Position numbers and translations under genes: made by a program. DNA of 23,171 bases, from IMG/VR virus record IMGVR_UViG_2531839128_000009, one strand, 5' to 3'. Positions 851 through 23,171 of this stretch are shown here, in pieces (position 1 is the stretch's first letter; each line of letters starts with the position of its first letter). Under the pieces are notes generated by a model. That model saw only the letters and a program-made list of their open reading frames with translations, ran no database searches and was not told where the DNA came from. This DNA comes from a virus (Duplodnaviria; Heunggongvirae; Uroviricota; Caudoviricetes).

Positions 851-904
851 GGTAGATCTCCCCGACAAAAGCAGGAATGATGCCATTTGCTTGTTATTTC
901 TGCA

Positions 905-930
905 TTTTCATAAACGTTGGTTTGGGAGAA
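905..930. other. left crossover site of the invertible segment (gix/hix-like, 26 bp)
   Basis: Plus strand TTTTCATAAACGTTGGTTTGGGAGAA; its reverse complement TTCTCCCAAACCAACGTTTATGAAAA matches the right site at 14 of 14 positions in the inner half plus central AA. Imperfect dyad around a 2-bp core, as in Din-family sites. Confidence 0.75.
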
Positions 931-1212: not shown

Positions 1213-1213
1213 T

Positions 1214-2219: not shown

Positions 2220-3091
2220 GCAGCCCTCACAATGTAATTAAATGAAATATTACGTGGGCGTGTCTCTGCTGCACCGACAATACTGGTACTCAACCCCGTT
2301 GCCGTTCGTTTGTTATTTTTATTTCCTTCAATCAAACAGTTGTAATCATCATTACCAATTAACGAATTGGTGGCATCAATACTGTCCGGGGACAAGGCAT
2401 TAGTTGTGGAACTTAAAGTCAGCATCTCGTCTGAACTTGGAAGATTTTTTAATGGTGTTTCATTGCGTGAAATACCCGCGTAAAAAAAGGACTCATGCCT
2501 GTGAGCTTCAAAAGAGTCATCCTGAAGACTTAGCAAGGCTCGCCCCGCATCCACTCCACGTCCATCATCCCAGCCACGAATAAATTCACCGCGTAAATCA
2601 GGCAATTTATTGGTCGGGTAAGCCTTTGCCAGTTCCGGGTATTCTTCAGCAGAAAAAGCCGCACCATTGCATTTCAGCCAGCCTGTTGGCGGAGTGGCTG
2701 AAGGCCACGGAACAGGGACCCCAACCGGTAATGCAGAGCCTTCTCCCAAACCAAGGTTTTCGAGAGCCGTTTTCACCGCGCCATCCGATTTGATATCACC
2801 AAACGGATTCTTGCGGCTCAGGTATTCAACAGCAAACCCCGATCCCAGCAATTCAACAAAACCGGGCAGATCACCATTATCAAGCACATCCCGTTGCGTT
2901 TTGTCACTTACAAACTGGGCCAGAGCTGCAGCAATAAAGCTGGCCTGCCGAATAACCTTATTGACTTGCGCACTGGATGCTTTCCCTGCTGTAAATCCGG
3001 ATAAAAGCGCAGGCAACGCTTCCCATTCCTCCTGCGACATAACATTGGCATTCCGATCAGTTGCAAACGCTTTAAAGTCATTTTTCGCCAT
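2216..3091 (-). CDS. tail fiber protein (constant N-terminal part plus currently expressed variable C-terminal part)
   Basis: Translation MAKNDFKAF…NLGLGEG…[10 protein letters not shown]…[17 protein letters not shown]…[13 protein letters not shown], a collar-type fiber C-terminus as I recall it from P2 H / Mu S-like fibers. Start ATG 3089-3091 overlaps the upstream stop (TGATG); an alternative ATG lies at 3107-3109. The right crossover site lies inside the gene at codons about 118-125. Confidence 0.85.
2741..2766. other. right crossover site of the invertible segment (26 bp), inside the tail fiber gene
   Basis: TTCTCCCAAACCAAGGTTTTCGAGAG: half-sites flanking a central AA, with the inner 14 nt identical to the left site in inverted orientation. 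Confidence 0.75.
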
Positions 3092-3771
3092 CAGAGTAAT
3101 ACTCCCCATGCCCCTACATCAAAACCACTGATGAATTCGTTATCCATATCAAAACCAAAAAATTTTGAACCTTCCGATGGAGTTTCCACCGAAGGTGTTT
3201 CAATGCCACCCGCCCAAACCCCGGCGGCTTTTACTGTGAGATATCCCTGTTTAATTGCAGCAATTAACTCACGCGATACATCTGAAATATCAGTATCAGG
3301 AAAGAGCCAGACCGATATCGTCATGTCCTGGTTATCGACTATCTGCATTCGCAGTCCGGATCCTGCTGTCGCCGCGTCAAGAATTGCTGGAAGCGAATCA
3401 TTCCGTCCGTCCCAGTTATTAATCGCAATCTTCGCTTTAAGGATGACACGATAAGTTTCATCGCTGAGGTACATGTATCCGGAATCAGGATCGTATGGCC
3501 CCTGCCATACACCATGATCATATCCAAGCCCGTCGGTATCCCAGCTGAAATAGACACCTGAGATAGGCTGGCTGACAACACGGCTACGTCCGATCCACAA
3601 TCCAAGAATGTCAAGTTGCACACCAACCGCAGAGTCAATATCAAATGCAGTAATCAGCCCTCTGGTGGCAGCCGCAACATCAATAAGCGGCCGGGTCATC
3701 AGATCAACATGTGCAAGAAATTTAGGTTTGGTGGCGTGGTAGTTCGTGATCAGTTCGGTGTATTTGCTCAT
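3091..3771 (-). CDS. baseplate / tail protein (gpI- or Mu gp48-like by position)
   Basis: 226-aa ORF immediately upstream of the tail fiber gene, overlapping neighbours on both sides. Assignment is from synteny only. Confidence 0.65.
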
Positions 3772-5320: not shown

Positions 5321-6072
5321 TAGTTTACCCCATCGGTATTGCTTCCACCGCGCTGAACACCGCCATGAGTGTGCGTATCATCGATTGGCTTGCCGTTAGC
5401 CTTAACGCTCCCCAAGAACTCAACAGCACCAGTGATTTTTGAAGCCACACCAGAAACAACAGACCCCACCATGCCCCCCATCCAGGTTAACAGGCCATGA
5501 ATGGTTACTTTCTCAGAAAAATCAGCCAGAGGGGCAACCACATCAAGACCACCCGGGGCGACAATTTTAATTTTCCGGGTATCAGGATTAAGCTCAAAAT
5601 AGGTGCTGCCGTCGTCACTACGCAACTGTGTGGCACTGATATTAATACCGCTAATCTTCCTCGCCTGCGACTGGGGACCGGCTATACAAAACGCATCCGA
5701 TAAATCATGCATTCTGTCATCGACCGGCTCCTGTATCCCACCGCTCTGCCACCAGAAATCAATACAACGATCGGCAAAAACGACAAGACACTCATCCCCG
5801 GCTTTAACCGGAAAAGTCAACGTACAGCCTCCGCCGCGCGGAAATACCACTGGCACATCCACCAGCAACGGGTAATTTTTGGTAATGCGGTTACCGTCGT
5901 TATCCTTTTCAACCGAACGGATAGCTGGCTGTACAACCGCCGTCACCGCGTCGGGATCGAATGACTGAACAATGCCAGGCAAGGCGACACGGATCTGGTT
6001 CTTTGTTGTTTCCCGTTCAGATTTGAATGTTTCGGCAAGGTCGCCGCTGCGGGTCTGGTCAGATACTGCCAT
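5320..6072 (-). CDS. baseplate spike / gpV-like protein
   Basis: 250-aa ORF with a GGAG SD 8 nt upstream of ATG 6070-6072. Position and size fit a baseplate assembly V / central spike protein. Confidence 0.7.
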   Translation of the reverse strand: MAVSDQTRSGDLAETFKSERETTKNQIRVALPGIVQSFDPDAVTAVVQPAIRSVEKDNDGNRITKNYPLLVDVPVVFPRGGGCTLTFPVKAGDECLVVFADRCIDFWWQSGGIQEPVDDRMHDLSDAFCIAGPQSQARKISGINISATQLRSDDGSTYFELNPDTRKIKIVAPGGLDVVAPLADFSEKVTIHGLLTWMGGMVGSVVSGVASKITGAVEFLGSVKANGKPIDDTHTHGGVQRGGSNTDGVN

Positions 6073-6091
6073 TTAGTAGGCTCCAGAAAGC

Positions 6092-6116
6092 AAAAAACCC
6101 GCCGGGTGGCGGGTTC
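6092..6116 (-). terminator. rho-independent terminator after the small membrane-protein gene
   Basis: Perfect 7-bp GC-rich stem ACCCGCC / GGCGGGT (6097-6103 and 6108-6114) with a 4-nt loop, followed on the minus strand by TTTTTTG. It lies 16 nt past the stop of 6132-6371. Confidence 0.75.
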
Positions 6117-6131
6117 ATTATTGAAGTTTCA

Positions 6132-6371
6132 TTACTGCTTGTTTGCTTCTAACGCTTCAGCTATTCGGCGAAGATACTCATTGTTTTTAAATGAAACCAT
6201 GATGCACTCAAAGAATATTCGGCAAAATACAGCACATAACAAAAGCACTAAAGCGCCAGCAGCCTTCCCATTAACAAACGTTATAATGGCGGCAACAACC
6301 AGAAGTAACATTGTGATGCCATACAGAACGTTGATGATTTTTGGAGTTATTAATTTATCAAATCCGAACAT
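6132..6371 (-). CDS. small two-TM membrane protein (inserted accessory gene, function unknown)
   Basis: 79-aa ORF with two hydrophobic stretches (IINVLYGITMLLLVVAAIITFV and AAGALVLLLCAVFCRIFFECIMV) and an AAGGA SD 9 nt upstream of the ATG. AT-rich by eye relative to flanking structural genes. Has its own promoter-like element and terminator. Confidence 0.8.
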   Translation of the reverse strand: MFGFDKLITPKIINVLYGITMLLLVVAAIITFVNGKAAGALVLLLCAVFCRIFFECIMVSFKNNEYLRRIAEALEANKQ

Positions 6372-6407
6372 GCGACAAATTCCTTATCGTGAAAGTAGAA
6401 GTACCAC

Positions 6408-6436
6408 ATTATAATTACGAGTGATTAATCAACAAT
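6408..6436 (-). promoter_or_regulatory. candidate sigma70 promoter for the small membrane-protein gene
   Basis: Minus-strand TATAAT (plus 6408-6413, perfect -10 consensus) with TTGTTG 16 bp upstream as a weak -35. Lies in the 53-bp gap between the two accessory genes, about 35 nt upstream of the ATG. Confidence 0.5.
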
Positions 6437-6766
6437 CTTTTTGCATGGAAAGGAACCGATGATTTTCGGCGCATCCATGCTGTTCTGCAGCAGTTGGACA
6501 TTCAGGAATCGCGTTTCGGTACCAGGGCGACGAATGTATTCAAAGCCGTAGTTGTTACCGTCTTTGGCAGGCATAAGCCCCATGTCTACTTTCAAACCAT
6601 TGGTACCCAGTTCGGTGATTTTTTGAGAGGTAACTCTTTCACCGTTGATTGTCGATAACTCGCCCTGGTTTGCAACCATAGTGTAGCCACCGCATTTAAC
6701 CGTGAAGCCATCCGCCCACGCGCTGCACGCAGAAAAGACAGCTAACAGAAAAATAATACCCCTCAT
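6425..6766 (-). CDS. small secreted / periplasmic protein of unknown function (accessory gene)
   Basis: 113-aa ORF with N-terminal signal peptide MRGIIFLLAVFSACSAWA followed by DG (AXA-type cleavage; a lipobox reading is less likely). Mature part has two Cys (CGG near the N-terminus, FPCKK near the C-terminus). AGGGGA SD; start is 3 nt after the upstream stop. Confidence 0.8.
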   Translation of the reverse strand: MRGIIFLLAVFSACSAWADGFTVKCGGYTMVANQGELSTINGERVTSQKITELGTNGLKVDMGLMPAKDGNNYGFEYIRRPGTETRFLNVQLLQNSMDAPKIIGSFPCKKIVD

Positions 6767-8136: not shown

Positions 8137-8723
8137 TAGCCGCCCCCCAGTAATGACGCCACGTTACCCGTGATGCTTTTCAGCAGTGAAGTATCTGGAG
8201 GCTTGGTGGTTTTGTTGCCGCTGTTCTGTACCGCCGACGTGCTGGCCCCTTCCTTCATGTTGGTTTTATCCGCGACGGTAATCTGCTGCGTCCGGGAGAT
8301 AAGGACCTCCCTCAGGGTGAGGACGGCGGACAGGACGTTTTCGGTTGTCTTGTCCGTCGTCACTTCCAGCGCCCGGATCAACATGTTGCTGTACAGTCGT
8401 TTACCGGTTACCACATCGAAGGGGATACGGCTTTCCTGCAGATCCAGTAGCTCCTGATACGTCTGCTGAGGACTCAGGCCGAGCAGGCTGGTAGCCGTCA
8501 GATTACTGGCAAAATCCAGCAATGCGCCGCCACCGGCGAAACCAACCTCCATCACCACTTCTGACGGTTTTTTATAGGCATGATCAGCGACAGCGGCCCC
8601 AACCTCTACCGGATGCTCTGTTATTTCAAGCATATCTGTATGCTTCTCTGAAATAACAACACTGGGAACAATCATTCCTATTTTTCTGCTCTGCTGATGA
8701 AAAAGTGTAGAGAGAATATCCAC
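8136..8723 (-). CDS. tail protein following the tape measure (hypothetical)
   Basis: 195-aa ORF whose start overlaps the tape measure stop, same strand. Confidence 0.6.
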   Translation of the reverse strand: MDILSTLFHQQSRKIGMIVPSVVISEKHTDMLEITEHPVEVGAAVADHAYKKPSEVVMEVGFAGGGALLDFASNLTATSLLGLSPQQTYQELLDLQESRIPFDVVTGKRLYSNMLIRALEVTTDKTTENVLSAVLTLREVLISRTQQITVADKTNMKEGASTSAVQNSGNKTTKPPDTSLLKSITGNVASLLGGG

Positions 8724-10712
8724 TAACCCACCCTCACCTGATTACTTCGCATGACCTGAGCATTTGCAGACTGTTGCCGACGTGCAACCTCATTACCGAC
8801 AGCGTGCGGATCTCCACCACCGTAAATGTGGTAGGTATTTTGCTGGTTAACCTCTGTCATTTTGCCACTAATTCCCGCCACGGCAGCCTTATTAATCAGC
8901 TCTCGAGAATAGATATTTCTTCCATTCTCATGCTGGATAATGCTGCTCATCAATGCTGACATGGTTTGCGGATCGCTCATATTCAGGGCAGCCCGGGGAT
9001 CCACTCCCAGTCGTTGCGATACAGCCCTGATATACGCAGTTGTGTTGTTATTATCAGACGCAGGTGCCCAAGTAGAGATAATTTTCTCCACACTGTTTAT
9101 TCCCCGTCCGGCGTACAGCATTAACTGACGAGCAAGAGCCCGTAATCCATCAAAAGCAGTTTCAAATCTGGCAAATCGCCCGCCCGGGCGTTCAAGAGAA
9201 GCCCCTGCCTGACCAGCAAAATTAAGGTTTCCCGGATTGTTATTCCGTTCTCCTCGTTTCGTAGCCTGTGCATATTGTTCCGGCTCATCATCACCAAACC
9301 AGCCGCGTACCGTCCGGCCCACACTGCGGGGATCGAATCCCCAGTGCTCTTTAATCCAGTCGGCAGTACTGTTAGCGCTGTCTGTAACCATCGGCATCGC
9401 TGACGGATTTTCGCTGCCCTGATTAAGTATCTGTTTGCCGATGATGACGGCATCAGCCCAGCGGCCATCTTTGATAGCGTTGAGCAGGTCGGCGATCATG
9501 TTCAGCATTTTGCTGAATTCGCCCATCTGGTCGATGAAGTTGCTGAAATCCCACTTCAGGGACCATGATTTTGGGTCAATATTGAGCAGTTTCGCCAGCG
9601 CTTTCGCCAGTTCATTAACAGACCCTTTCAGGTCACGAACCATCTTCAGCGCGGCATCGACCTCCGGCTTCCACTTGCCCCAGTCAATCAGGCTGTCGCC
9701 GCCTTCCTTCCAGGTCTGATAGTCCTCCCACAGAAGGGCAATCCCCGCCGCCAGCGCGGTAATGAGACCAATCGGCGACATCCAGAACGTACTGTTCAGA
9801 ATGCGCAGCGCAATCGTCAGCGCGCCAAACAGCGAGATGAGCTCCCGCGTTTGCTTATCCAGCGATTGCCACCAGGTGATAAGGCTGGATGTTCCCTCAA
9901 TTAGCCTGAAGAACAGCCGCCCGATGATGTCTCCGATCGCCAGAATGCCTTTTATGGCTTTCGTCAGGGTCTGCTCGATACGAGGGAAGTTGTCCAGGAT
10001 ATGGCGGCGCAGGGTGTCCAGCGAACCCGCAAGCCCACCCGCAAGATTAGAGCCGATTTTGTCACGGGCCATGCCTGCCATCGCGCCGAACTCGCGCAGG
10101 GAGGTCATGAATTTGTTGGAGCTTCTGGCCGCCTCGTCAGCATTGAAGCCGATAGCTTTCGCCATTGCGCTGTACTGCCCGGAGCCCCCCCCCCACACCC
10201 CGGCGCATCGCCATAAGGGTATTTTCGTCAATGCCCAGCATCTGCGCATACTGGTTAGCCCGGTAATACGGCATGCTGCTGAGCTTCTGGCCGACGCCCG
10301 TAAAGATAGCGGCCATGTCGCGCATGTTACCGCTGGCGTCACGGGTCTGTACCCCCAGACGATTCAGAAATCCCTCCGCCCCGGGGTTATTACGGATAAA
10401 ACGGGCAAGGCTCTCCAGTGACCCGCGCGCAGCGTCCACGCTGCCGCCAACCTGCGAAACCGCATAGCCAATAGACTGAATTCCCTGGACTGTCGCGCCG
10501 GTGCGCTGTGACGCCCAGTAAAGATTATCCAGGCCGGAGGCGATCTTAGCCGTGAAGGCCACCACGGACAGCGCAGCTCCTTCAACGGCCAGTCCCATTT
10601 TGATGACATTTGCAGTTGTACCGGCGAGGACAGAACCGAACTTTTTCGCTCCTGCATCATCCACACTGAAGCCAAGCGAGACGAGGAAATCTTTAATAGT
10701 TTCAGCGTTCAT
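8723..10712 (-). pseudogene. tail tape measure protein, frame interrupted in a homopolymer tract
   Basis: Two overlapping minus-strand ORFs (10137-10733 and 8723-10342) in different frames both give tape-measure-like sequence, and switch frame exactly at the C10 run 10185-10194. Removing one base restores a continuous roughly 660-aa protein reading …MAMRRGVGGGSGQYSAMAKAIGF…. Start ATG 10710-10712 has a GGAGAGAGGA SD. Confidence 0.8.
10185..10194. repeat. C10 (G10 on the coding strand) homopolymer inside the tape measure gene
   Basis: Ten consecutive C counted on the plus strand; they encode Gly-Gly-Gly in either frame. A length of 9 or 12 would be in frame. Confidence 0.9.
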
Positions 10713-13873: not shown

Positions 13874-14414
13874 TTTTATCCCTCACAACATGGGTAATCG
13901 CTCTGCGATATTGCCCGGTGTCAATTAATGGTTTCGCCAGTTCGGTTCCCGGGGATTCGCCAGCAGCACGCCGGGCAAGTTCCAGTGTTGCCCCCTTGCG
14001 CCCCCGACGAGCCCGGGCTTCAACAGTACTGTCAGCAAGCGGCGTAAAGCCGGTAATGGTCATGTAACGCCTGACGCCATTAGCCGCCAGTGTTCCGGCA
14101 CGGTTGAGTGCGCTTTCTGCTCCCGCAGCATTACCATCAAGTGCAGCCTGCGCCGCGACTTTGAGCTGCGGCACCGTCTGCTCTTCTGCCGATTTAACGC
14201 CGGGAACCAGGTGAGGTCGTGGCGGGATGTTCTGCTCTGGTGAGCCGTATTCGTTGAGGTAACCGATGCCCGCATTACCAAACGGAACATCATCCCGCCC
14301 GCTGTCTTCCGAAGGGATGCCGACCAGCACATCTTTTTTGGTTAACGACCTGAGCGCATCCAGAATGGCCTTAGCGTTATCCACCCTCGTTGTTACACCG
14401 CTTTTGAAACTCAT
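13860..14414 (-). CDS. virion morphogenesis / neck protein (hypothetical)
   Basis: 184-aa ORF, same strand; ATGA overlap with the upstream gene. Confidence 0.6.
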
Positions 14415-14818
14415 AGCTGGCGACCACCTGCACCGAACATCGTGATCAACTGATAAAATTCAGCGCCATATCGGGTGTTATTCCAGAAACCTGCATCAGG
14501 ATTCAGCGTCGCGCTGGTGTCATAACTGACGCTTACCTTATCCACGGACTTTGAGGACTGAACACCATTGGTTGAACCGCCCGGACCACCAGCCAGCATC
14601 GCCCGACTGTCTGCCGCCCAGAGCGTCATGTAGTGCGCAACGAACAACCCGGCAAAGTACGGAAACAACTTTTTGCCGGTGACGTTTTCGCTCAGCAGTT
14701 CATCGGCCAGATTCAGACGAAACTGGATTTGCGCTTCGGGATATTTGGCAGGGTCAGCAAACTGCGGGAAGTCGCGGCGAAAATCACTTACCGCTGGCAG
14801 ACTTTGATTCTTTGGCAT
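14411..14818 (-). CDS. head-tail adaptor-like protein (hypothetical)
   Basis: 135-aa ORF with a GAGGT SD 5 nt upstream of ATG 14816-14818. Confidence 0.65.
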
Positions 14819-15005
14819 TTTTTACCTCGTTACGCGCGTCTGTGGCTTTGCCAACGGATACTTCCGCGTGCGCACGAGTGAACCAGTGCGTGGCAACTTC
14901 TTCCTCCACAGCATGACGGCCTTTAACAAACTCGCTCCGTGAACCGTCGGGAAGCGTGAGCACAAACGGGGTATGTACGTGTATTACTGCATTATTTTTT
15001 GCCAT
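14784..15005 (-). CDS. small Lys-rich protein following the capsid gene (hypothetical)
   Basis: 73-aa ORF with an AAGGA SD 7 nt upstream of ATG 15003-15005. Overlaps the next gene by 35 nt. Confidence 0.5.
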
Positions 15006-15020
15006 CGGGTCATCCTTAAT

Positions 15021-15040
15021 GGCCCCGCCAGGGGGCCATG
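15021..15040 (-). other. intergenic stem-loop between the capsid gene and the next gene
   Basis: GGCCCC-GCCA-GGGGGCC (6-bp GC stem) located between the capsid stop (15047) and the next SD. No U-run follows, so it is not a classical terminator. Confidence 0.4.
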
Positions 15041-15046
15041 TGGCTG

Positions 15047-15988
15047 TTAAATGCCATCAACGTACGAAATGGTTTCTTTGTACACTGGCTCAACCGCACC
15101 CAGCTTGCCGTAGTAAGTGACGATCTGATACAGACCGCGATACTGCACCGGCACGCTCTGAAGCGGAACCAGCGGGTAGCGGACGTATTTTTTATCGTTG
15201 GTGTACGCAACCATGCGATCCTTTTTCCCCACACCACGGCCTTTCAGCCATTTAACCGCGCGGATATTCAGCGGAACACCGTTCTGGTGATAGCTGATGG
15301 TGTTGGTCTGAAGATACGTCAACAGGGACTGGTTACCCGCAGATGAAACGATGATGCTGGACAACAGAGCAAACTGCTCAGGCGGGATCAGCAAATCACG
15401 CGGAACCACAGAGTAACCGGAAGCGGCCCACGCATCAGACAGCACCTGGTTAATGCTTGCGCGGATTTCGTCCGGTGTTGAGGTTGCCCACGTTTTAGCA
15501 GCGTTGTTGACAGGCACGCCGTCCAGGGTAACAAGGCCTTTCAGGTTTAATGCGGAATCGCCAACATATACCTGTTCATCGTTATCCATCTGCCATTTCA
15601 GTTGCATACCGTCATACTTCTGCGTATCAATCGGGCGGCCGACCTGCTGAGCAGCCTGCAATTCTATGACCGTCCAGCCAAGTTCCATCCCCCACAGGTT
15701 CAGCGGGTTACCGGATTTGCCGATATCCACGTTCACGCCAGCAATAGCGGTTGAGTCTTTGCCTACCCAGTTTTTGCCATTCGGATTTGCACCAGTACCC
15801 GCAGCGGCGAAGCTGGTATTCGTCCAGCTGGAAATGTCATCTGCGATAGAGACATCTTCACGCAACTGAATATCGCGGGTCCAGGTGTACCCCACCAGTG
15901 GCAGGTTCAGCGTCTGGTCGAGTCGCTCCAGCTCCCCGATGAGAAAGGCACCAGAGCTGTCAACGGTTGCCTGATCAAAAGTAATCAT
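15047..15988 (-). CDS. major capsid protein
   Basis: 313-aa ORF downstream of the scaffold/protease and a small structural gene, followed by an intergenic hairpin. Assignment is from synteny and size. Confidence 0.75.
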   Translation of the reverse strand: MITFDQATVDSSGAFLIGELERLDQTLNLPLVGYTWTRDIQLREDVSIADDISSWTNTSFAAAGTGANPNGKNWVGKDSTAIAGVNVDIGKSGNPLNLWGMELGWTVIELQAAQQVGRPIDTQKYDGMQLKWQMDNDEQVYVGDSALNLKGLVTLDGVPVNNAAKTWATSTPDEIRASINQVLSDAWAASGYSVVPRDLLIPPEQFALLSSIIVSSAGNQSLLTYLQTNTISYHQNGVPLNIRAVKWLKGRGVGKKDRMVAYTNDKKYVRYPLVPLQSVPVQYRGLYQIVTYYGKLGAVEPVYKETISYVDGI

Positions 15989-15999
15989 TCGTCTGTTCC

Positions 16000-16506
16000 T
16001 TAAATCTTCCAGGAAATTTCTGCATTGCCGTCAGCATCACCGGCACCTGTGAATTCAGCGTTGGTCAGCACCACGTTTTTGCCACTGACTGACGTGGACA
16101 TGAATCCACCCAGCGGCACTTTGATGGATTCATCAGTGGAGACGACAACGTATACCGGGTCGCCTTTTTTGATGGTGCTGGCATCAAAATCAGAACCGAG
16201 ATTAACGGTCACGTAGCCACGCTTCATGGCGTCGCCCGGGAAGTTCTTGCCAGTCCCCACCTGGCGAACCATGTCCGGCTGCGAAGTGGTCGGATAAGGG
16301 CGCACGTAGATCCCCTTCACCTTGTCTGCGGTATCACCATCTGCCAGCGGCACGAAAAAACCGTCATCATCGTATTTACCAGCCAGGCCATAGGCAGCGA
16401 AGGCGTTATCGGATTTAAGGACCACCGGTTCGACGGTTAAGTCCTGCGGGCGAGAGACAGCCCCGGCAATGCCAACAGGCATCCGGTACAGAAATACATT
16501 ATTCAT
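16000..16506 (-). CDS. capsid-associated structural protein (decoration or accessory; hypothetical)
   Basis: 168-aa ORF between the scaffold/protease and capsid genes. Confidence 0.6.
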   Translation of the reverse strand: MNNVFLYRMPVGIAGAVSRPQDLTVEPVVLKSDNAFAAYGLAGKYDDDGFFVPLADGDTADKVKGIYVRPYPTTSQPDMVRQVGTGKNFPGDAMKRGYVTVNLGSDFDASTIKKGDPVYVVVSTDESIKVPLGGFMSTSVSGKNVVLTNAEFTGAGDADGNAEISWKI

Positions 16507-16509
16507 TTT

Positions 16510-17730
16510 TTACCCTTTACGGTTTGCCCAGAATTCAGCGTTTTGTTTGTTCAGGGAAGCGATACTGGTCATGCCCATGTTTAGGCGCTGTGCATCGCCG
16601 GTGGTGGCGCGGGTGTTTCGCCCTTTGGCAATCTCAGACACGGCATTAAACGCCATGTCGACCGATTGTTTCGGCAATTTGCGGATATCCGCATCACCGA
16701 CTATCTGGCGAACCAGCGTTTTGTCAGCAGAAGCCAGAACCTCGCGTTTGAACGCGGTCGGTTTCATCTTACGGCTCAGATCGATACCCGGAACGATAAC
16801 TTCGGCACGCCAGGCTGAGTCACCAGTAATCGTGGTTTCCTCTTCATCGTCCTCGCCGTCACCGGTTGGATTATCGTCAGGCTTATTATCGTTATCGCCC
16901 GTCGCATTTCCTTCCAGCTTAGCCAGCAGGGATTTCAGTAATGTTTTGAGGTCATCATCACTGTCGCCGGTTGGACCTCCGCCCATCTCTGGTGCTTTGT
17001 CCGGTAGTGGTTGCTGCGGGGACAGGTTGATGTTGAGATTAACGCCCTGCGGCAAATCCCCCTCATCTCCTGTAACCGATGCGGGAGCCGACTCCACCAG
17101 TTCGTTCATGGTGTCGGCATCTCCTGTCTTGATGGCTGCACGCATGCGGTTCCACCAGTTTTTCTTTTGATTTGCCATTGTGTCTCTGTCTCCAATTGCA
17201 CAACGATTTCCGGCTCTGCCTTTGGGGACAAGAGCCACATGGTTTCCGGTAATATCGACCTGCTCGGCTTTACCTGGCTCGGTCTGCTCATACTCCGCGT
17301 CATAGCCGCACGACACTTCGCGCAGGCCATCTTCGATAAGCTGAATGGCGCTTTCGTCTTTGACGATAAGGTCAGCCAGCATCAAATCAGACTGCTCACC
17401 CGTCCCGCGCCGGACATTCTGGAGGTGCCCGACAGCAAGCTCTTTCCAGTTCTCGGGATTTACCAGCCGCACATTCCCGTTTTCATCTTCAGGATGCAGG
17501 ATCGTGATGCTCATCCCTTCGAATGAGGCAAGCGTGGCCGGATGGAATACCTGCTCAGGAGAACGTGTGACGACTATTTCACCGAACTTATCGGGTTTCA
17601 GTTTTGGCAGGTCATCAGCACCATAGAGCTGCTTACCTGTTCGTCCTATCGGCACGTCTTTGCACAGCAACGAGCCGTCAGCCAGCTGATAGCGGGTTTC
17701 CCCCAGCCGGGTATTGAAAAAATATTTCAT
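16510..17730 (-). CDS. head scaffold / prohead protease-like protein
   Basis: 406-aa ORF with a long acidic low-complexity central region (…GDSDDDLKT…DNDNKPDDNPTGDGEDDEEE…) typical of scaffolding proteins. Lies after the portal and MuF-like genes. Confidence 0.7.
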   Translation of the reverse strand: MKYFFNTRLGETRYQLADGSLLCKDVPIGRTGKQLYGADDLPKLKPDKFGEIVVTRSPEQVFHPATLASFEGMSITILHPEDENGNVRLVNPENWKELAVGHLQNVRRGTGEQSDLMLADLIVKDESAIQLIEDGLREVSCGYDAEYEQTEPGKAEQVDITGNHVALVPKGRAGNRCAIGDRDTMANQKKNWWNRMRAAIKTGDADTMNELVESAPASVTGDEGDLPQGVNLNINLSPQQPLPDKAPEMGGGPTGDSDDDLKTLLKSLLAKLEGNATGDNDNKPDDNPTGDGEDDEEETTITGDSAWRAEVIVPGIDLSRKMKPTAFKREVLASADKTLVRQIVGDADIRKLPKQSVDMAFNAVSEIAKGRNTRATTGDAQRLNMGMTSIASLNKQNAEFWANRKG

Positions 17731-17744
17731 GTGTTACCTGCGAT

Positions 17745-18518
17745 TCAGGCGGGATAAGAATGGGAGGAGGGAAAAACGATTTCTTTATAACAGCGACAAT
17801 TCGGGAGCTCGCCAGCGTGACCGGTCATGCCATCAAGCGTTGGAGGTTTGCCCCATTCGACAAATTTACCTTCCATTTCCCGATGAGAATGCCTGACGTC
17901 ACCATCTTCGGCTGTACGCCAGATATAACCATTCGAACCAATTGACAGCGCACGTGCCTGATCCAGCGCGCCGGTTGCACGTCCAAGTTCAGTACGGGCA
18001 ATCAGGTCAGCTCTGGACTTTGCTATATCACCCGATGCTGCAATTTCTTTAGCAAAATGTTCTGCTCTCCCACCGGTCACAACAGCTTCTATCGCCCGAT
18101 TCTGGATGTCGTACACCCTGTCAGCCGCCTCGAGGGGGAGCGATTTGATGTACTTGACCTGTTCGGCGATGATGGATTGCATCACCTGCCCTGGCGGGGC
18201 ACTGTTTACCAGATTGCGTAGCTCACGGCTGATGGTTTTGCTGTGTTTACGCCACTGCTCATCATTCTTGCGCACAATATCGGCGGTAAAGTTTTCCGCG
18301 ACCTTTGTCGCCCAGGGGGTGATGATTTCACTGTAGCGTTCCAGCGCCTCAATAATTTCCGTGATACTGTCATTTGAACCATCGTAGTGACCATTTACGA
18401 TGTCCCCGACCGCCCGCGCTATCCTGCGTAGGCTGGTTCGATACCGGATTTCCGCCTGACGGTTCCTGCGGTTCGTCATCAGGTTCGCCGATGCCGGGCG
18501 GCGCTTCATCTTCGGCAT
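17745..18518 (-). CDS. head morphogenesis protein (Mu F / SPP1 gp7-like minor head protein)
   Basis: 257-aa ORF. The C-terminal block YIWRTAEDGDVRHSHREMEGKFVEWGKPP…GELPNCRCY looks like the conserved MuF-type domain. The N-terminus overlaps the portal 3' end by 149 nt, so the start is uncertain. Confidence 0.8.
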   Translation of the reverse strand: MPKMKRRPASANLMTNRRNRQAEIRYRTSLRRIARAVGDIVNGHYDGSNDSITEIIEALERYSEIITPWATKVAENFTADIVRKNDEQWRKHSKTISRELRNLVNSAPPGQVMQSIIAEQVKYIKSLPLEAADRVYDIQNRAIEAVVTGGRAEHFAKEIAASGDIAKSRADLIARTELGRATGALDQARALSIGSNGYIWRTAEDGDVRHSHREMEGKFVEWGKPPTLDGMTGHAGELPNCRCYKEIVFPSSHSYPA

Positions 18519-19836
18519 TCTCGATGTCCTCGTCGGTAATGGATGCCCCGATGCCGGTTACGTCAGAATTTTCTCGCAAATCAGTCATAGCGGCTTTCAG
18601 TGTCATCAGACCATCACCCAGCGCTGTACTGATTGCGTTGGTAGTGTTTAACGCCACCGTTGAGCGATCGACATCAGACATTTGCCAGAGCGGGTTAAAC
18701 TCAAACGTGAAATCGTCCGGTAGCGGCTTGCCAAGTTCCGAACGATGCATGATGTCCAGTATCCGCCGCACCGGAAGACGTAAACGTCTCTCCTGCAGCG
18801 AGCTTACCCGATCGTAATAGTTGGCAAGGTCTGCATCGCCGGTAGAAAATCCTTTCGGGGACTGTCCGAACAACCGCACCAGTGGGATACCAACAGCGCC
18901 ACTAATCTGTTCTGCAAACTGCGAAAGGATGTCATCCAGACCACTGAAGCTGTACTGATGGGTTTCAAACTTATCCCGCGAGTCCATGAGCGTCATGCCT
19001 TCATTGCTCTGGAACTGTCGAATCAGGTCGATATTCTTCAGCAACGCTTCATACGCAGGACCACCAAGTGCGATAAGCTCGCGTAGCTTCTCCACGCTGT
19101 AGGTGCGCAGATGCGCCTTGTAGACCAGCTGCGCCGCGCCGACAGTAGCGCTGTCGAACGCGGTAAGACGATCCCAGATACGCTCTACAACCGACATTCC
19201 CCATTCGTTCTCGGTCATCTTCTGCTGGAATGGCAGCGTGACGCCATCAAAGCGAATCAGACGACTGTGATGAATGCGCCAGGCAGGAATTCCCGTTGCT
19301 GTGGTCACCACATCGTAAAACTCAGGTTTACCCAGGTCCGGCCCCATATCTTTAATGCGGCGGGTCAGCACTGGGTTAATCATCCAGCGGTCGAGCGGGA
19401 GAATCCCCTTAAACTTGCCTTCTCCAATGGTTTCGAGCCGCAGCGGGGTCATTGGTGCCTGCCCCTCAATCATGATGAAACCCACCGCGCCGCCATAGAG
19501 GCGCGACCATTTCAGCACGTCATTCAGCGCATCCCAGATTTGCAACTCATCCAGTTGTGATTCGAGAATGCCGCGATCTTTTGCATCAATTTCCGAAGTG
19601 ATGCGAATGCCTTTGCGGGTCATATCATCCGGGATAGCATCGACCGCTTCGCCGATGATCCAGGACGAACGATAGGACCATTCCACCAGCATGCGGTTAC
19701 GACTGGTGAAATTAGCCCGGTAGGTGGATGCTGAGTGCTGGTTAGGTGTCTGCATCCCTACGCGGGCAATAAAATTCTCATAACCATCAGCTGTGGCCTG
19801 CGCAGTTCGCCGCAGGGCTTGTTTGTTTCGTGCCAT
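18370..19836 (-). CDS. portal protein
   Basis: 488-aa ORF directly after the large terminase (ATGA overlap), with the acidic C-terminal tail common in portals. Confidence 0.85.
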   Translation of the reverse strand: MARNKQALRRTAQATADGYENFIARVGMQTPNQHSASTYRANFTSRNRMLVEWSYRSSWIIGEAVDAIPDDMTRKGIRITSEIDAKDRGILESQLDELQIWDALNDVLKWSRLYGGAVGFIMIEGQAPMTPLRLETIGEGKFKGILPLDRWMINPVLTRRIKDMGPDLGKPEFYDVVTTATGIPAWRIHHSRLIRFDGVTLPFQQKMTENEWGMSVVERIWDRLTAFDSATVGAAQLVYKAHLRTYSVEKLRELIALGGPAYEALLKNIDLIRQFQSNEGMTLMDSRDKFETHQYSFSGLDDILSQFAEQISGAVGIPLVRLFGQSPKGFSTGDADLANYYDRVSSLQERRLRLPVRRILDIMHRSELGKPLPDDFTFEFNPLWQMSDVDRSTVALNTTNAISTALGDGLMTLKAAMTDLRENSDVTGIGASITDEDIENAEDEAPPGIGEPDDEPQEPSGGNPVSNQPTQDSAGGRGHRKWSLRWFK

Positions 19837-21458
19837 CAGGCCTGTCTCCCTAGCAGCTCCCAGATGTTCAGGGCTGAATTCATTGGGGCATAGTTGATCA
19901 TCACCGAGTCGGCAAGGTTTGGCGACCGGGTTCCATCAGGCTGTTTATCAATAACGATTTTTCCCACACCATTAATGGAATAGGTCGGCTGCGAAAGCTC
20001 GATGATGAGTTTATCTTTGAGTGCCATGCTACTGCTGATTGAGATGATTTCGTCCGGGTTGTAGGCCATGCCCTCAACCACGGCACGGTAGGTGTTCTGG
20101 AAAAGTTTACGTAACCGCCACCAGCTCTGGGCTTTGGCGTTAGCGAAGAAGTCCTTGTTCAGACGTGCGGCTTGCCCGTTGTCCCCGCGAACAGCTTCAT
20201 CATCCGGATCAAATACCGCGCCACTACCTCGAAACGGTGTGGCGAGTATTGACGGTCGGCGCGCAGCGTTACGCAGTTCGTTGATAGCGCGTGCATCGCC
20301 GCGAACGCCAGCGCCCAGCCCGTCCTCATCAAAGCGAAACTCTTCGAGGTTGTCCTGTTCGCAAAAACCGAAGACCTTCTCGACGGACTGATAAATGTCG
20401 CTGCCCACACCAGACCATTCCCGCACATTTTCCAGGAGGAAGCCATGACGGGTGGAAAAGGCATTTTTGTCCCTGCCTTCGTCGGCGACATCCATCGCGC
20501 CAAGTCGTTTGCCTGTTGGCTGGATCCCCAGTTTGATATGCGCATCAACGGCAGCCTGTACCCATTCGGATGGAATCAGGACGCCTTCCGCTGATGCGCT
20601 GTAGTTCAGATCAAGTTCCTGTGCCACCACCACCGGATTATCGATTTTCTCGCATTCCCTGCGATACCACTCTTCATCCTTGCGAGGATCATCCCGCCAG
20701 TGGAATGTGAATACCGGTATCTTCCCGCCATGACGCTTCTGAGCGAACGGGTTCGCCATGCCATTAACTGAACTCAGGTCAATACGGCAACGCGTCGTTT
20801 GTGACAACGCCGCATCAATCAGCAGAGGACGCTGAAGGAATGCAGCCTCATCAACCAGATAAAGCGTGGTACGGTCACCACGACCAATATTATCGCCAGC
20901 CTCGCCTTTGATAACGGCACCAGTTTCAGGAAACTCAACACGCATATATGGCGCGTGCTTCTTCTCGCTCCACGAACCGCGAAACTCTACAGGTAGTGTT
21001 TCCACGAACTTGCGCGCCTTCCAGAACAATGCTTTCGGGTCACCGGTGCTGTCGACGTATTCCTCTTTACGGGAGCCGAAACCGATAACCATTCCTTTGT
21101 TGAAGAGACAAAGCGAGCAGGCCAGTCCGATCGCGGTCCAACTGAGCCCCATTTCACGGGATTTTTCGGTAATACCATTCTCCCGATTACCCCAGCGTTC
21201 CATAATCCAGTGGATCCACTCCTCCTGCTTAGGGAAGAGTAAAAACGGAATGGTCACCGGCAGGCCATAATCAATATTACGCGGGTCCGTTGTCATGCCC
21301 CAGTCGATGATGAACTGAGCCGGATTGGTTCGGTAAAACTGCTTCAACACGGGCAATATTTCAGGATTCTGGCGAATGCGCTGTAGGCGTTCCATCCGCC
21401 ATTCAAAAACCATCTGGTAATCAGGATGTTTAAAATCGAAGGGGAATGGTAACGGCAT
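19836..21458 (-). CDS. terminase large subunit
   Basis: 540-aa ORF following the small terminase with an ATGA overlap. Size and position are typical of TerL. Confidence 0.88.
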
Positions 21459-21460
21459 AC

Positions 21461-22012
21461 TTAGCCCATCATTTTTCTATACGCCTCTGCAGCCTGCTCC
21501 GGCGTTAAGTTGGTAATTTCTGTTCTGACTGGTCCTCCATCAGCGCCAGTCACTTCATTTTTGACATTGTCTTTAAACGCCTGAACAGAAACATGACGCC
21601 CAAGCAACTCAAGATTTTTAACCTTATCAGGCCATTTGATTTTCTTCAGAAGTGCGGCGCTATCTGCGGATACCATCTCCACGACATCCATTCCTGATAG
21701 CGTTGTGCGCCATACCTTAGGCCAGTCTTTAATGGGTTTTAGCTCACCGTTTTGCAGGAGAATGTCAAGCACATCCATCTGGTCGATTTCAAGAAGGCGA
21801 TTAAGTACATATTCTGCATTAATACCAACAAGATCATTGCGTTGCGCTTTCAGTTCAGCGATTCTTAACTTGATGTCAGGTTTTGACATGTTTTCGGACG
21901 CAGTACGGTTGGCTGTCTTTGCGCTGTACCCCGCCCGAATAGCCGCTTGTGTGGCGTTTAAATCGATGAGGTACTCGCGACAGAACATTTCTTGTTTGTC
22001 GGTGAGTGCCAT
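21461..22012 (-). CDS. terminase small subunit
   Basis: 183-aa ORF; N-terminus [30 protein letters not shown] is the characteristic HTH start of one small-terminase family. First gene of the packaging/morphogenesis block. Confidence 0.88.
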
Positions 22013-22036
22013 GGCAAAGTCTCAATTGGATTGAAA

Positions 22037-22309
22037 ATGAGTGATTTATTACTAATTAAAAACTGGTTAATTGACCATCATACACTATCAATTTTCTTTG
22101 GTTTTTTATCGGCTGGGTTATGGATCAAATCAGCAACAGCCAAAGTCAAAACAGGTAGAAGCACCGTTGTAGCAATTACATTTGATGATCCCCAAAAAAA
22201 TGTAGATCTTCACGAATTTTTCTTAACTGCGCGGTTACAGTCTAAATATAACTCATATGCAGCTTTCGCTGCTGCTGCAACTGTGATTTTGCAAATGGCT
22301 GGCTATTAG
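22037..22309 (+). CDS. possible small membrane protein on the opposite strand (hypothetical)
   Basis: 90-aa frame from ATG 22037 (MSDLLLIKNWLIDHHTLSIFFGFLSAGLWI…) with one clear hydrophobic helix, in an AT-rich region. Only a weak SD. A plus-strand terminator lies about 285 nt downstream. Confidence 0.3.
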   Translation: MSDLLLIKNWLIDHHTLSIFFGFLSAGLWIKSATAKVKTGRSTVVAITFDDPQKNVDLHEFFLTARLQSKYNSYAAFAAAATVILQMAGY

Positions 22310-22398
22310 AAAGCCTTAACCACGATATTATTTACCTTTATCAATATCAGTTAACGGCTCAAAGTGTAATGGTTCCACATTCTCCTAATGGAGTTATT

Positions 22399-22524
22399 CT
22401 ACTCGCCCATCTCGGTAGCCGGCTGCATAAAGCCATTAACCAGCTCACGCTGACGTCGTGACATCTTACCCGTAAAGGTTTCGCCTGTTTGGGTGGTTAA
22501 CATGATTTGGTAGATGTCGGACAT
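22399..22524 (-). CDS. possible 41-aa small protein (hypothetical)
   Basis: Hand translation gives MSDIYQIMLTTQTGETFTGKMSRRQRELVNGFMQPATEMGE ending at TAG. AAAGAGG SD 6 nt upstream of ATG 22522-22524. Below the size cut-off of the supplied ORF track. Confidence 0.35.
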   Translation of the reverse strand: MSDIYQIMLTTQTGETFTGKMSRRQRELVNGFMQPATEMGE

Positions 22525-22592
22525 TGAGAACCTCTTTATCCGCTTGTTGGGATATCAGTTAAGTTATCCCGTGTAGGGTATAAGCCATTATC

Positions 22593-22620
22593 AAAGCCAC
22601 TCGGCATGGAGTGGCTTTTG
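22593..22620 (+). terminator. rho-independent terminator, plus strand
   Basis: AAAGCCACTC-GGCATG-GAGTGGCTTT hairpin (8 to 10 bp stem) followed by TTTTG on the plus strand. Confidence 0.55.
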
Positions 22621-22630
22621 TAATAGCAAT

Positions 22631-22656
22631 AAAAAAACCGTCCGGAGGCGGCTTGT
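22631..22656 (-). terminator. probable rho-independent terminator of the peptidase-like gene
   Basis: Short GC hairpin (CCGCC…GGACGG with one mismatch) followed on the minus strand by seven T, immediately after stop codon 22658-22660. Confidence 0.5.
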
Positions 22657-22657
22657 G

Positions 22658-23171
22658 TTAAATCCCCAAGAGAGGCTTAAAGTCATTTAGCTTCTCTGCT
22701 TTAATAACAAATCCGAGATTCATTGTAATTTCAGAACGCACAACTGGTGTAGCGACTGTTGGTACGTCAATAATTTCAATATTCCCGCTAACATTCGTTA
22801 CTGGCCCTGCATACAACAACCCAAGGAAAATTAATCTCTCCCCCATAGCAATACCATCATTAGTAGCATATGAGCCTTGGTTCATTATATAAACGGGAGA
22901 ACCGCTAGAACCACCGAAACAAGCCATATCAATGAGGAATTCAGGCTTACCCTTCCAGTTTTCCATAGGTGATGATGCTGTGATGCCTTTCCTGGTAACA
23001 GGCCTATTGTTTACAGAATCCCATAATCCATTTGGATATCCTGTCATGTAAACATCTTCGACAGGAGTAATGTAATTGTTACCACGCATCTGACGATCTG
23101 TGAAAAAGAAGAGTTCTGGGCTAATGCCACTTTTCTCCATCTCATTCAGCAATCCAGCGATAGGCAATATG
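22658..23171 (-). CDS. trypsin-like serine peptidase domain protein, C-terminal part (5' end beyond window)
   Basis: Frame is open to the last base of the window. Contains CFGGSSGSPVY, matching the GxSGxP catalytic-serine motif of chymotrypsin-fold peptidases; the His/Asp part would be upstream and outside the window. AT-rich by eye relative to the phage structural genes. Confidence 0.7.
   Translation of the reverse strand, partial: ILPIAGLLNEMEKSGISPELFFFTDRQMRGNNYITPVEDVYMTGYPNGLWDSVNNRPVTRKGITASSPMENWKGKPEFLIDMACFGGSSGSPVYIMNQGSYATNDGIAMGERLIFLGLLYAGPVTNVSGNIEIIDVPTVATPVVRSEITMNLGFVIKAEKLNDFKPLLGI

What the first reader, a model, noticed from the sequence alone, without database searches (positions are those of the whole stretch)
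22658..23171. Trypsin-like serine peptidase gene at the window edge, upstream of the packaging operon
The last 514 nt encode the C-terminal part of a protein with the catalytic-serine motif GGSSGSPV of chymotrypsin-fold peptidases. The frame stays open to the window boundary, so the gene is truncated by the window. It looks AT-rich compared with the phage structural genes and ends in its own terminator. Peptidases of this fold are not part of the lysis or packaging cassettes normally found before terS, so this is likely accessory cargo; a defence or abortive-infection role is a hypothesis only. Any partner genes would lie beyond the window.
Basis: partly seen in the sequence, partly recalled or inferred. 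Interest (0 to 1): 0.6.

Follow-up and report, generated by a model that had tools for sequence, protein, structure and literature searches.

The report
Stand-alone serine protease carried by prophage
The window edge holds the last 170 codons of a cytoplasmic trypsin-fold protease that a temperate phage carries as optional cargo between its lysis and DNA-packaging genes; the family is already catalogued as an untested anti-phage defence candidate (PADLOC PDC-S45).

Summary
On the minus strand, 22658-23170 encodes 170 residues plus a stop and stays open to the window edge. It contains GGSSGSPV, is AT-rich (GC 0.40 against 0.52-0.56), and is followed by a weak terminator-like hairpin with a U7 run. 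Near-identical contigs give the full gene: about 266 aa, one chymotrypsin-fold domain, with His-Asp-Ser invariant in 72 homologues and no signal peptide or membrane segment. It matches PADLOC candidate PDC-S45 over its full length (E 8e-101) and PHROG 7688 (function unknown). It lies between the lysis cassette and terS. E. coli prophages with the same packaging genes carry other cargo in that slot (Rha, KilA-N, hypotheticals). Relatives of 47-98% identity sit just upstream of the packaging genes, after the lysis cassette where there is one, in five unrelated prophage types. Outside prophages, relatives are embedded in or next to restriction systems, including in an archaeon. No partner gene is conserved. 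The best reading is a single-gene, prophage-borne defence protease that aborts infection, but nobody has tested this family. It is a new member of a known candidate kind, of moderate interest.

The parts
22658..23170 (-). 3' part of the protease gene: residues 113-282 in the numbering of the 282-aa gene call (97-266 of the likely 266-aa protein), plus the TAA stop at 22658-22660. The gene runs off the window edge.
   Evidence: Translation. 99% identity to P0001 and 98% to Salmonella P0002. PADLOC PDC-S45 E 1.6e-67. DNA differs from L001 by 1 nt.
22892..22915 (-). GGSSGSPV active-site motif. The catalytic Ser codon (AGC) is at 22904-22906.
   Evidence: G199 S200 S201 G202 S203 P204 are invariant in 72 homologues. 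The motif aligns to GGNSGSP of staphylococcal glutamyl endopeptidase.
23018..23041 (-). GYPNGLWD, a motif specific to this family (G156, Y157, P158 and D163 invariant).
   Evidence: The motif was used as a search pattern that recovered at least 516 genomes and 135 viral contigs.
22628..22654 (-). Terminator-like hairpin (22654-22635) followed by a U7 run, starting 4 nt after the stop codon.
   Evidence: Energy is only -7.3 kcal/mol, z -1.2. Conserved with one substitution in Salmonella P22-like prophages. A stronger terminator follows the Klebsiella homologue; the Morganella homologue has none.
22549..22657 (-). 3' flank that travels with the gene. Near-identity to Salmonella P22-like prophages ends at about 22549, which marks the downstream edge of the shared lysis-protease module.
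   Evidence: In alignment A1 the invariant columns run without a break to position 623 of the reverse-complemented window and then diverge.

Best explanation
What it is (shown). The window holds the 3' two-thirds of a gene of about 266 codons. It encodes a stand-alone, cytoplasmic serine endopeptidase of the chymotrypsin fold, belonging to PADLOC candidate family PDC-S45 (PHROG 7688). A lambdoid temperate myophage of an enterobacterium, most likely E. coli, carries it as optional cargo in the variable slot between the lysis cassette and terS.

How it most likely works (inferred). The lysogen expresses it on its own, from a weak promoter-like site upstream, and its transcript ends at the hairpin-U7 site. 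Q-antiterminated late transcription would read through that site. The protease stays latent in uninfected cells. When another phage infects, a phage product activates it, and it cleaves an essential host protein or a phage protein. The infection then aborts. This resembles the way the e14 prophage protease Lit works, but with a different catalytic class. Sensing and proteolysis sit in one polypeptide, because no partner gene is conserved. A flexible but partly invariant 25-residue loop (residues 238-263), located where the S1-pocket loop lies in this fold, is a candidate regulatory element.

Shown: fold, triad, lack of export signals, single-gene status, genomic contexts. Inferred: defence function, latency, trigger, substrate.
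For: Identity.
- PDC-S45 model covered end to end: E 7.6e-101 for the full protein, 1.6e-67 for the window fragment.
- H65, D110 and S201 invariant in 72 homologues. They align to the triad of glutamyl endopeptidase.
- No hydrophobic segment or signal peptide.

Cargo status.
- GC 0.40 against 0.54-0.56 in neighbouring genes.
- 292 complete E. coli genomes hold the same head and packaging module. None has this protease, and only one has a distant relative.
- Alternative cargo occupies the same slot in sister prophages.
- The lysis-protease-terminator block is 98% identical in Salmonella P22-like prophages with unrelated packaging genes.

Defence association.
- Relatives are embedded in type I R-M operons in a bacterium and a Thermoplasmata archaeon, with overlapping start and stop codons in the latter.
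- One follows an Eco57I/PglX-like methylase. One lies between a type I R-M system and McrBC on a Bacillus plasmid.
- The PDC set was defined by exactly this kind of embedding (10.1101/2024.01.29.577857).
- 4 of 8 other PDC/HEC candidates tested elsewhere protected E. coli (10.1101/2024.09.26.614923).

Single gene.
- Among 150 neighbours from 45 loci, no Pfam family occurs more than 3 times.
- 2,046 clusters at E<=1e-30, and almost all of the best 150 listed are 265-300 aa.

Own transcription unit. A terminator sits inside the late operon here and in Klebsiella. A promoter-like site lies 55 nt upstream of the ATG.
Against: - No member of this family has been tested against phages in the literature I could search.
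- The gene is co-oriented with the late operon, so it could simply be a late gene.
- The promoter-like site is a 9/12 consensus match, no more frequent than chance. The hairpin is weak and absent in Morganella.
- Recognisable defence genes are only a small minority of the 150 neighbours from those 45 genomic loci, and many neighbours are housekeeping genes.
- Trigger, substrate and latency are entirely inferred.
- Between the 98%-identical copies, 11 codons differ synonymously and 10 non-synonymously. That is only moderate purifying selection.
Confidence: 0.55

Rival explanations
1. It is a late-expressed phage protease that serves the phage's own lytic cycle. Transcribed with the lysis and packaging genes, it would cleave host proteins, for example immune or proteostasis factors, to favour virion production or to counter host defences.
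For: The gene is co-oriented with the late operon and sits inside it. In five prophage lineages it lies directly before the packaging genes. Terminase and portal families are the commonest downstream neighbours in viral contigs, and lysis genes the commonest upstream. In Morganella there is no terminator and only a 49-nt gap to terS.
Against: Closely related phages do without it. None of 50,697 deposited phage genomes encodes a relative. Relatives sit inside cellular R-M operons in bacteria and archaea and on plasmids, which is hard to square with a phage-serving or anti-defence role. A terminator between it and terS only makes sense for transcription that is not Q-modified.
Confidence: 0.2
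2. It is a lysogenic-conversion gene unrelated to phages. It would be a cytoplasmic protease that changes host physiology, such as stress tolerance, regulated proteolysis or persistence, and so benefits the lysogen.
For: It has moron-like features (AT-rich, terminator, variable slot). Many non-prophage relatives lie among ordinary metabolic genes. Its nearest structural neighbours are the HtrA/Deg quality-control proteases.
Against: It lacks the PDZ domains and export signal of HtrA proteins. It is repeatedly embedded in restriction systems. It is patchy and horizontally spread from archaea to CPR bacteria at about 40% identity, which is typical of mobile defence genes and not of physiology genes.
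Confidence: 0.12
3. It is a toxin-like addiction or selfish module. The protease would be toxic when its carrier element is lost or disturbed, which stabilises prophages, plasmids and R-M operons.
For: It occurs on plasmids (19 records), in prophages and in R-M operons. Serine-protease toxins exist, such as IetS of the IetAS system (PMC13069673).
Against: No conserved neighbouring antitoxin or ATPase gene was found. The gene is a single unit of about 270 aa in almost all of the best 150 family representatives.
Confidence: 0.08
4. It is a prohead maturation or scaffold protease needed for capsid assembly.
For: It is a protease gene next to the head and packaging genes.
Against: Prophages with the same head module at 98-99% identity lack it. 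The same gene occurs in P22-like prophages with unrelated heads and in a prophage that has its own HK97 prohead protease. It lies upstream of terS, not between the portal and capsid genes. It also occurs outside any phage.
Confidence: 0.02

Closest known systems
PADLOC 'phage defence candidate' PDC-S45 (Payne et al., bioRxiv 10.1101/2024.01.29.577857), equal to PHROG 7688
   Same: The HMM is covered end to end (profile 11-283 of 293, E 7.6e-101). It is a single gene of about 270 aa containing only a Trypsin_2 domain. Relatives found here are embedded in type I R-M operons, the criterion used to define PDCs.
   Different: This copy is not embedded in a defence system. It sits in a prophage late region between lysis and terS. 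The family is only a computational candidate, and I found no functional test of it.
Lit protease of the E. coli e14 prophage (own knowledge: a zinc metalloprotease that cleaves EF-Tu when the T4 capsid Gol peptide appears)
   Same: It is a single protease gene carried by a prophage and proposed to abort infection by proteolysis once a phage product appears. This is the working model adopted here.
   Different: The catalytic class and fold differ (HExxH metalloprotease against His-Asp-Ser chymotrypsin fold). There is no sequence relationship. Lit's trigger and substrate are known, and here both are unknown.
HtrA/Deg family protease domains (DegS, Deg1/2/9, DegQ; S1C)
   Different: Identity is only 16-20%. 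This protein has no PDZ domain and no signal peptide or membrane anchor, and it has about 80 extra residues.
Staphylococcal glutamyl endopeptidases V8/Esp (S1B)
   Same: They are the best sequence match among solved structures (profile E 3.7e-4) and the best Foldseek hit. The triad residues align.
   Different: They are secreted enzymes with a pro-peptide, of 216 aa. Similarity is marginal (14-20% identity; Foldseek TM-score normalised to the query about 0.49).
FAM111A serine protease domain (human antiviral restriction factor)
   Different: It is eukaryotic and multi-domain, with 10-18% identity. This is a resemblance of fold and theme only.
Protease modules of multi-part defence systems: RT-Protease class XI (UG/Abi), LmuA-protease of Lamassu, and trypsin-MBL pairs (HamMAB)
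   Same: There is weak profile similarity to the protease domains of RT-Protease_XI (E 2.3e-6) and LmuA (E 8.6e-4). In these systems a trypsin-like protease is the effector or the activator.
   Different: Those proteases are fused to, or paired with, an RT, an ABC ATPase, a helicase or an MBL nuclease. Here no partner is fused or conserved nearby.

Membership tests
Clan PA / family S1 serine peptidase (chymotrypsin fold) | Two-beta-barrel chymotrypsin fold | tested here: met
Clan PA / family S1 serine peptidase (chymotrypsin fold) | Catalytic triad in the order His, Asp, Ser, with a GxSGxP motif around the Ser | tested here: met
   H65, D110, S201 and G199-P204 are invariant in 72 homologues and align to the triad of glutamyl endopeptidase. 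Only the Ser lies within the window. His and Asp come from L001/L002.
Clan PA / family S1 serine peptidase (chymotrypsin fold) | Peptide-bond hydrolysis | not testable with these tools
   This needs an enzyme assay with a Ser-to-Ala control.
PADLOC PDC-S45 | Full-length match to the PDC-S45 HMM | tested here: met
   E 7.6e-101 over profile positions 11-283 of 293 for the full protein, and E 1.6e-67 for the window fragment.
PADLOC PDC-S45 | Single-gene unit with no obligatory partner | tested here: met
   No Pfam family recurs more than 3 times among 150 neighbours from 45 loci. The neighbours in prophages are lysis and packaging genes.
PADLOC PDC-S45 | Members found embedded in R-M, BREX or DISARM operons (guilt by embedding) | tested here: met
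   This holds for relatives, not for this copy: L018 and L029 lie inside type I R-M operons, L032 follows an Eco57I/PglX-like methylase, and L104 lies between type I R-M and McrBC.
PADLOC PDC-S45 | Protection against phage infection | not testable with these tools
   I found no published test. It needs plaque and liquid-culture assays.
Phage 'moron' (own knowledge: Juhala/Hendrix definition - an extra gene with its own promoter and terminator, atypical composition, present or absent between related phages) | Presence/absence polymorphism between otherwise similar phages | tested here: met
   Sister E. coli prophages carry Rha, KilA-N or hypothetical genes in the slot. 292 genomes hold the module, and none has this gene.
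Phage 'moron' (own knowledge: Juhala/Hendrix definition - an extra gene with its own promoter and terminator, atypical composition, present or absent between related phages) | Composition different from flanking phage genes | tested here: met
   GC 0.401 against 0.539 for the spanin gene, 0.539 for TerL and 0.563 for the portal gene.
Phage 'moron' (own knowledge: Juhala/Hendrix definition - an extra gene with its own promoter and terminator, atypical composition, present or absent between related phages) | Own terminator | tested here: inconclusive
   The hairpin plus U7 is present and conserved but weak (-7.3 kcal/mol, z -1.2). It is stronger in Klebsiella and absent in Morganella.
Phage 'moron' (own knowledge: Juhala/Hendrix definition - an extra gene with its own promoter and terminator, atypical composition, present or absent between related phages) | Own promoter active in the lysogen | tested here: inconclusive
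   There is one 9/12 consensus match (TGGTCA-17-GATAAT) at L001 9966-9994. Site counts are no higher than in shuffled sequence. This needs transcript mapping.
HtrA/DegP family (S1C) | C-terminal PDZ domain(s) and export to the periplasm or envelope | tested here: not met
   Pfam finds only Trypsin_2. There is no hydrophobic N-terminus: the maximum 19-residue hydropathy is 1.34.
Trypsin-MBL / nuclease-protease defence pairs | Adjacent co-evolving MBL-fold nuclease, and protease fused to a defence protein | tested here: not met
   No such neighbour occurs in the prophage loci, and no partner family recurs among the genomic neighbours. The protein is a single domain.
Prohead maturation protease | Required part of the head module, found together with portal and capsid genes | tested here: not met
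   It is absent from prophages with the same head genes. It is present alongside unrelated head modules, including one with its own HK97 protease.

The most novel reading that the evidence does not exclude
PDC-S45 proteins would be a pan-prokaryotic, single-polypeptide immune protease. One chymotrypsin-fold domain of about 270 aa would both sense a conserved phage late product and carry out abortive proteolysis, with no partner sensor. This would be a bacterial and archaeal counterpart of intracellular antiviral proteases such as FAM111A. Its unusual conservation (about 40% identity from enterobacterial prophages to Thermoplasmata and CPR bacteria) would reflect a universally conserved trigger or substrate. 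Prophages would place it at the head of their packaging operon to exclude competitors.
Probability: 0.3. Interest if true: 0.65.

Novelty: new member of a known kind. Interest (0 to 1): 0.4.

Why it matters
If the defence reading is right, this is a simple immune module: one small protease domain with no partner. It is spread across bacteria, archaea, plasmids and prophages (2,046 clusters at 50% identity), and its trigger and substrate are unknown. The Salmonella, Klebsiella and E. coli prophage copies offer a convenient system in genetically tractable hosts. The slot between lysis and terS, which holds different cargo in sister prophages, is a good place to look for more such genes in lambdoid prophages. 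If the reading is wrong, the gene is a phage cargo protease of unknown function. It would then still mark a recombination module, because the lysis-protease block is shared between E. coli-type myophages and Salmonella P22-like podophages.

Tried and rejected
- Prohead protease: rejected. Sister prophages with the same head genes lack the gene, and it co-occurs with unrelated head modules and with an HK97 protease.
- HtrA-type quality-control protease or secreted V8-type protease: rejected as family membership. There is no PDZ domain and no export signal, and sequence similarity is marginal.
- Protease-nuclease or RT-protease system: rejected. No partner is fused or conserved nearby.
- Partner genes beyond the window edge: that region holds the spanin, lysozyme and holin genes.
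- tblastn of the fragment and of the full protein against 50,697 deposited phage genomes: no match.
- NCBIfam: no meaningful hit. Pfam: only the generic Trypsin_2.
- Literature. 'PDC-S45' occurs in one paper, as a bare PADLOC hit. Searches for trypsin-like single-gene defences, for PF13365, and for prophage serine proteases in exclusion or abortive infection found only multi-component systems. The one paper that tested PDC candidates did not include S45.
- Promoter scan upstream of the gene: one weak site, no better than chance.
- One lookup (P0081) found no contig on record.
- I could not inspect the model coordinates, so active-site geometry and the position of the 238-263 loop were inferred from secondary structure and alignment only.

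Full report
**Observation**

On the minus strand, 23170 down to 22661 translates into 170 residues without a stop, and a TAA follows at 22658-22660. The frame is open to the window edge. The peptide contains ...IDMACFGGSSGSPVYI.... The motif is encoded at 22892-22915 and the active-site Ser codon at 22904-22906.

GC is 0.40-0.42 across 22001-23000, against 0.52-0.56 in the structural genes. A short hairpin at 22654-22635, followed by U7, starts four bases after the stop. It is weak: -7.3 kcal/mol, z -1.2.

terS (Terminase_2, E 2.8e-39) lies at 21461-22012, further along the same strand.

**Recovering the full gene**

The fragment finds 372 homologues. The best are P0001 (99%, from metagenome contigs) and P0002 (98%, Salmonella enterica). 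Contigs L001 and L002, which encode P0001, are essentially the same DNA as the window from the protease through terS. There is 1 nt difference in the 513-nt fragment. They are therefore a legitimate extension of the window.

The gene was called as 282 codons. An ATG preceded by GGGAG, together with the 262-269-aa length of most enterobacterial homologues, points to a protein of about 266 aa starting MSVSQ.

Beyond the window edge lie the spanin (DUF2570), lysozyme and holin genes, then the Q antiterminator. The order is Q - holin - lysozyme - spanin - protease - terminator - a 41-aa ORF - a 90-aa gene on the opposite strand - terS - TerL - portal.

**What the protein is**

- Pfam sees only Trypsin_2, and NCBIfam sees nothing useful.
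- The protein matches PHROG 7688, of unknown function, at E 2.9e-100.
- It matches PADLOC model PDC-S45 over the whole profile, at E 7.6e-101.
- An AlphaFold model built on 72 homologues is confident (pLDDT 90.4, pTM 0.89).
- By sequence, the nearest solved structures are staphylococcal glutamyl endopeptidases, at only E 3.7e-4. That alignment places H65, D110 and S201 on the known triad.
- These three residues are invariant in all 72 homologues. So are the family-specific motifs GYPNGLWD, R172/G174 and D193/A195.
- There is no signal peptide or membrane segment, and the protein is acidic. It should act in the cytoplasm.
- After the catalytic Ser comes a long hairpin, then a low-confidence stretch (238-263) that still holds invariant P249, N263 and G265. 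The last strand and the C-terminal helix follow. By its position in the fold, this stretch replaces the loop that lines the S1 pocket. I could not inspect the coordinates, so this placement is inference.

**It is optional cargo**

The head and packaging part of the window (14000-22300) is 98-99% identical to prophages in E. coli. 443 of 5,426 complete genomes match, 292 of them over at least 80% of the query. It is also 98.4% identical to induced E. coli myophages, and it is related to Salmonella phage SEN34. None of those E. coli genomes has this protease, and only one encodes a distant relative at 71% DNA identity.

In sister prophages with the same terS, TerL, portal and opposite-strand 90-aa genes, the slot after the lysis genes holds other cargo:

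- a Rha regulator;
- a 135-aa hypothetical protein;
- a KilA-N protein plus a hypothetical protein.

Conversely, the lysis-protease-terminator block recurs at about 98% identity in Salmonella P22-like prophages with quite different terminase, portal and coat genes. The similarity stops about 110 nt past the stop codon, at window position 22549. The window is therefore a mosaic of two modules, and the protease travels with the lysis module.

**The position recurs**

More distant homologues occupy the same position in other prophage types.

| Host | Identity to the window fragment | Upstream | Downstream |
|---|---|---|---|
| Klebsiella | 64% | Rz | several kinds of terS/TerL |
| Morganella | 47% | nin-like genes | terS, 49 nt away |
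| E. coli C3728 | 71% DNA identity | GH19 endolysin and two small ORFs | HNH - P27-type terS; this phage has its own HK97 prohead protease |

IMG/VR holds 135 viral contigs with a relative. I scanned 63 non-redundant loci from these.

- Downstream, terminase and portal families are the commonest neighbours: Terminase_6C in 7, Phage_portal in 6, Phage_portal_3 in 4, Terminase_2 in 4, HNH in 4, and others.
- Upstream, lysis genes are the commonest: Phage_lysozyme in 9, Rz in 6, DUF2570 in 4.
- Integrase-adjacent and tail-module positions also occur.

No deposited phage genome among 50,697 gives a tblastn match, even with the full protein at E 1e-3.

**Outside prophages**

Among the 80 best loci kept, the hosts include Bacteroidota, Bacillota, Actinomycetota (many Collinsella), Planctomycetota, CPR bacteria, and Thermoplasmata and Woesearchaeota archaea. 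These copies are still about 40% identical over the full length.

An exhaustive profile search gives 2,046 clusters (50% identity) at E<=1e-30. Almost all of the best 150 listed are 265-300 aa.

Among 150 genes flanking 45 non-redundant loci, no Pfam family occurs more than three times, so there is no conserved partner. The neighbours include integrases, HTH proteins, BrnT toxins and Schlafen/AlbA_2 proteins. They also include type I R-M subunits, a PglX/IIG enzyme, a UG19 reverse transcriptase and other PDC candidates, alongside ordinary metabolic genes.

Four loci are telling:

- HsdR - protease - DUF4365 - DUF1016 - HsdM, next to an integrase (L018);
- HsdM - HsdS - protease - HsdR with overlapping start and stop codons, in a Thermoplasmata archaeon (L029);
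- the protease overlapping the end of an Eco57I/PglX-like methylase gene (L032);
- type I R-M - protease - McrB-like ATPase - McrC, on a Bacillus plasmid (L104).

This is the 'guilt by embedding' signal from which the PADLOC authors derived their 145 PDC candidates (10.1101/2024.01.29.577857).

**What is known about the family**

'PDC-S45' appears in one searchable paper, as a bare PADLOC hit in Sinorhizobium prophages. A study that tested eight PDC/HEC candidates found four protective, but it did not include S45. Trypsin-like proteases with a proven role in defence all belong to multi-part systems: HamMAB/trypsin-MBL, gasdermin/CARD, RT-protease and Lamassu. This protein shows only weak profile similarity to the protease domains of RT-Protease_XI and LmuA. 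The family is therefore catalogued but functionally untested.

**Most likely mechanism**

I take it to be a prophage-borne, single-gene defence. The protease would be made in the lysogen and stay latent. An infecting phage would switch it on, and it would then cut a host or phage protein so that the infection aborts. This is the logic of the e14 Lit protease, with a different catalytic class.

Shown: fold, intact triad, cytoplasmic location, single-gene status, cargo status, and repeated association with restriction systems.

Inferred: expression in the lysogen, latency, trigger, substrate, and a regulatory role for the 238-263 loop.

- The terminator argument is that an intrinsic terminator inside a Q-antiterminated late operon can only act on transcripts that start at a separate promoter. 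That is reasoning from known lambdoid biology.
- It is weakened because the hairpin is weak here and absent in Morganella.
- The upstream promoter-like site is no better than chance.

I put this reading at about 0.55.

**Rivals**

- A late lytic-cycle or counter-defence protease (0.2) fits the orientation and the position next to terS. It does not fit the gene's absence from close relatives and from all deposited phages, or its embedding in cellular R-M operons.
- A lysogenic-conversion protease unrelated to phages (0.12) and an addiction toxin (0.08) are possible but less well supported.
- A prohead protease is excluded by the comparisons above.

**Verdict**

It is a new member of a catalogued but untested candidate family. 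It sits in a clear variable slot of lambdoid prophages and is easy to test. Interest is moderate.

Noticed in passing
window 296-1642 (with 1614-3109): A DNA invertase gene (296-886, minus strand; phrog_125, E 5e-97) lies next to plus-strand ORFs for a tail-fibre C-terminal piece (877-1212) and a tail-fibre assembly protein (1214-1642). These face the minus-strand tail-fibre gene (2216-3109) and assembly gene (1614-2219). This looks like a Mu Gin / P1 Cin-type invertible host-range switch.
   Followed up: no
window 22037-22309 (+): A 90-aa gene on the strand opposite to the late operon lies between the protease and terS. It is AT-rich (about 0.40), matches phrog_14357 (E 2.9e-62, unknown function) and has two hydrophobic stretches. 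It is conserved next to terS in E. coli sister prophages, so it may be a second moron-like gene, perhaps for a small membrane protein.
   Followed up: partly
window 22300-22602, including the 41-aa ORF at 22399-22524 (-): This short stretch, with a 41-aa ORF (phrog_6581), matches 2,321 of 5,426 complete E. coli genomes at 83-96% identity. That is far more than carry the rest of this phage's packaging module (443). It seems to be a widely shared junction sequence upstream of terS.
   Followed up: partly
L001 82-705; L002 384-1253; L005 7-930: The contigs that extend the window, and the related Salmonella prophages, carry other defence-type cargo next to the repressor gene: BstA (BstA_C) in L002 and L005, and an Nmad5-domain protein in L001. 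These phages therefore hold accessory genes at two or more separate sites.
   Followed up: no
phage genome collection, and window 22658-23170: No deposited phage genome (50,697 records) gives a tblastn match to the protease. Yet 135 IMG/VR viral contigs and many Salmonella, Klebsiella and Morganella prophages encode it. Only 1 of 5,426 complete E. coli genomes has a relative. The reason for this gap is unexplained.
   Followed up: partly
window 6001-6500 (ORF 6132-6371, minus strand): GC dips locally to 0.414 inside the tail module. The dip coincides with a 79-aa ORF of unknown function (phrog_12129, E 8e-48), which may be another small inserted gene.
   Followed up: no
window 8723-10342 (-): The tape-measure protein (phrog_2276) also matches endolysin and tail-injection transglycosylase families over residues 319-526. 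This suggests a built-in peptidoglycan-cutting domain.
   Followed up: no
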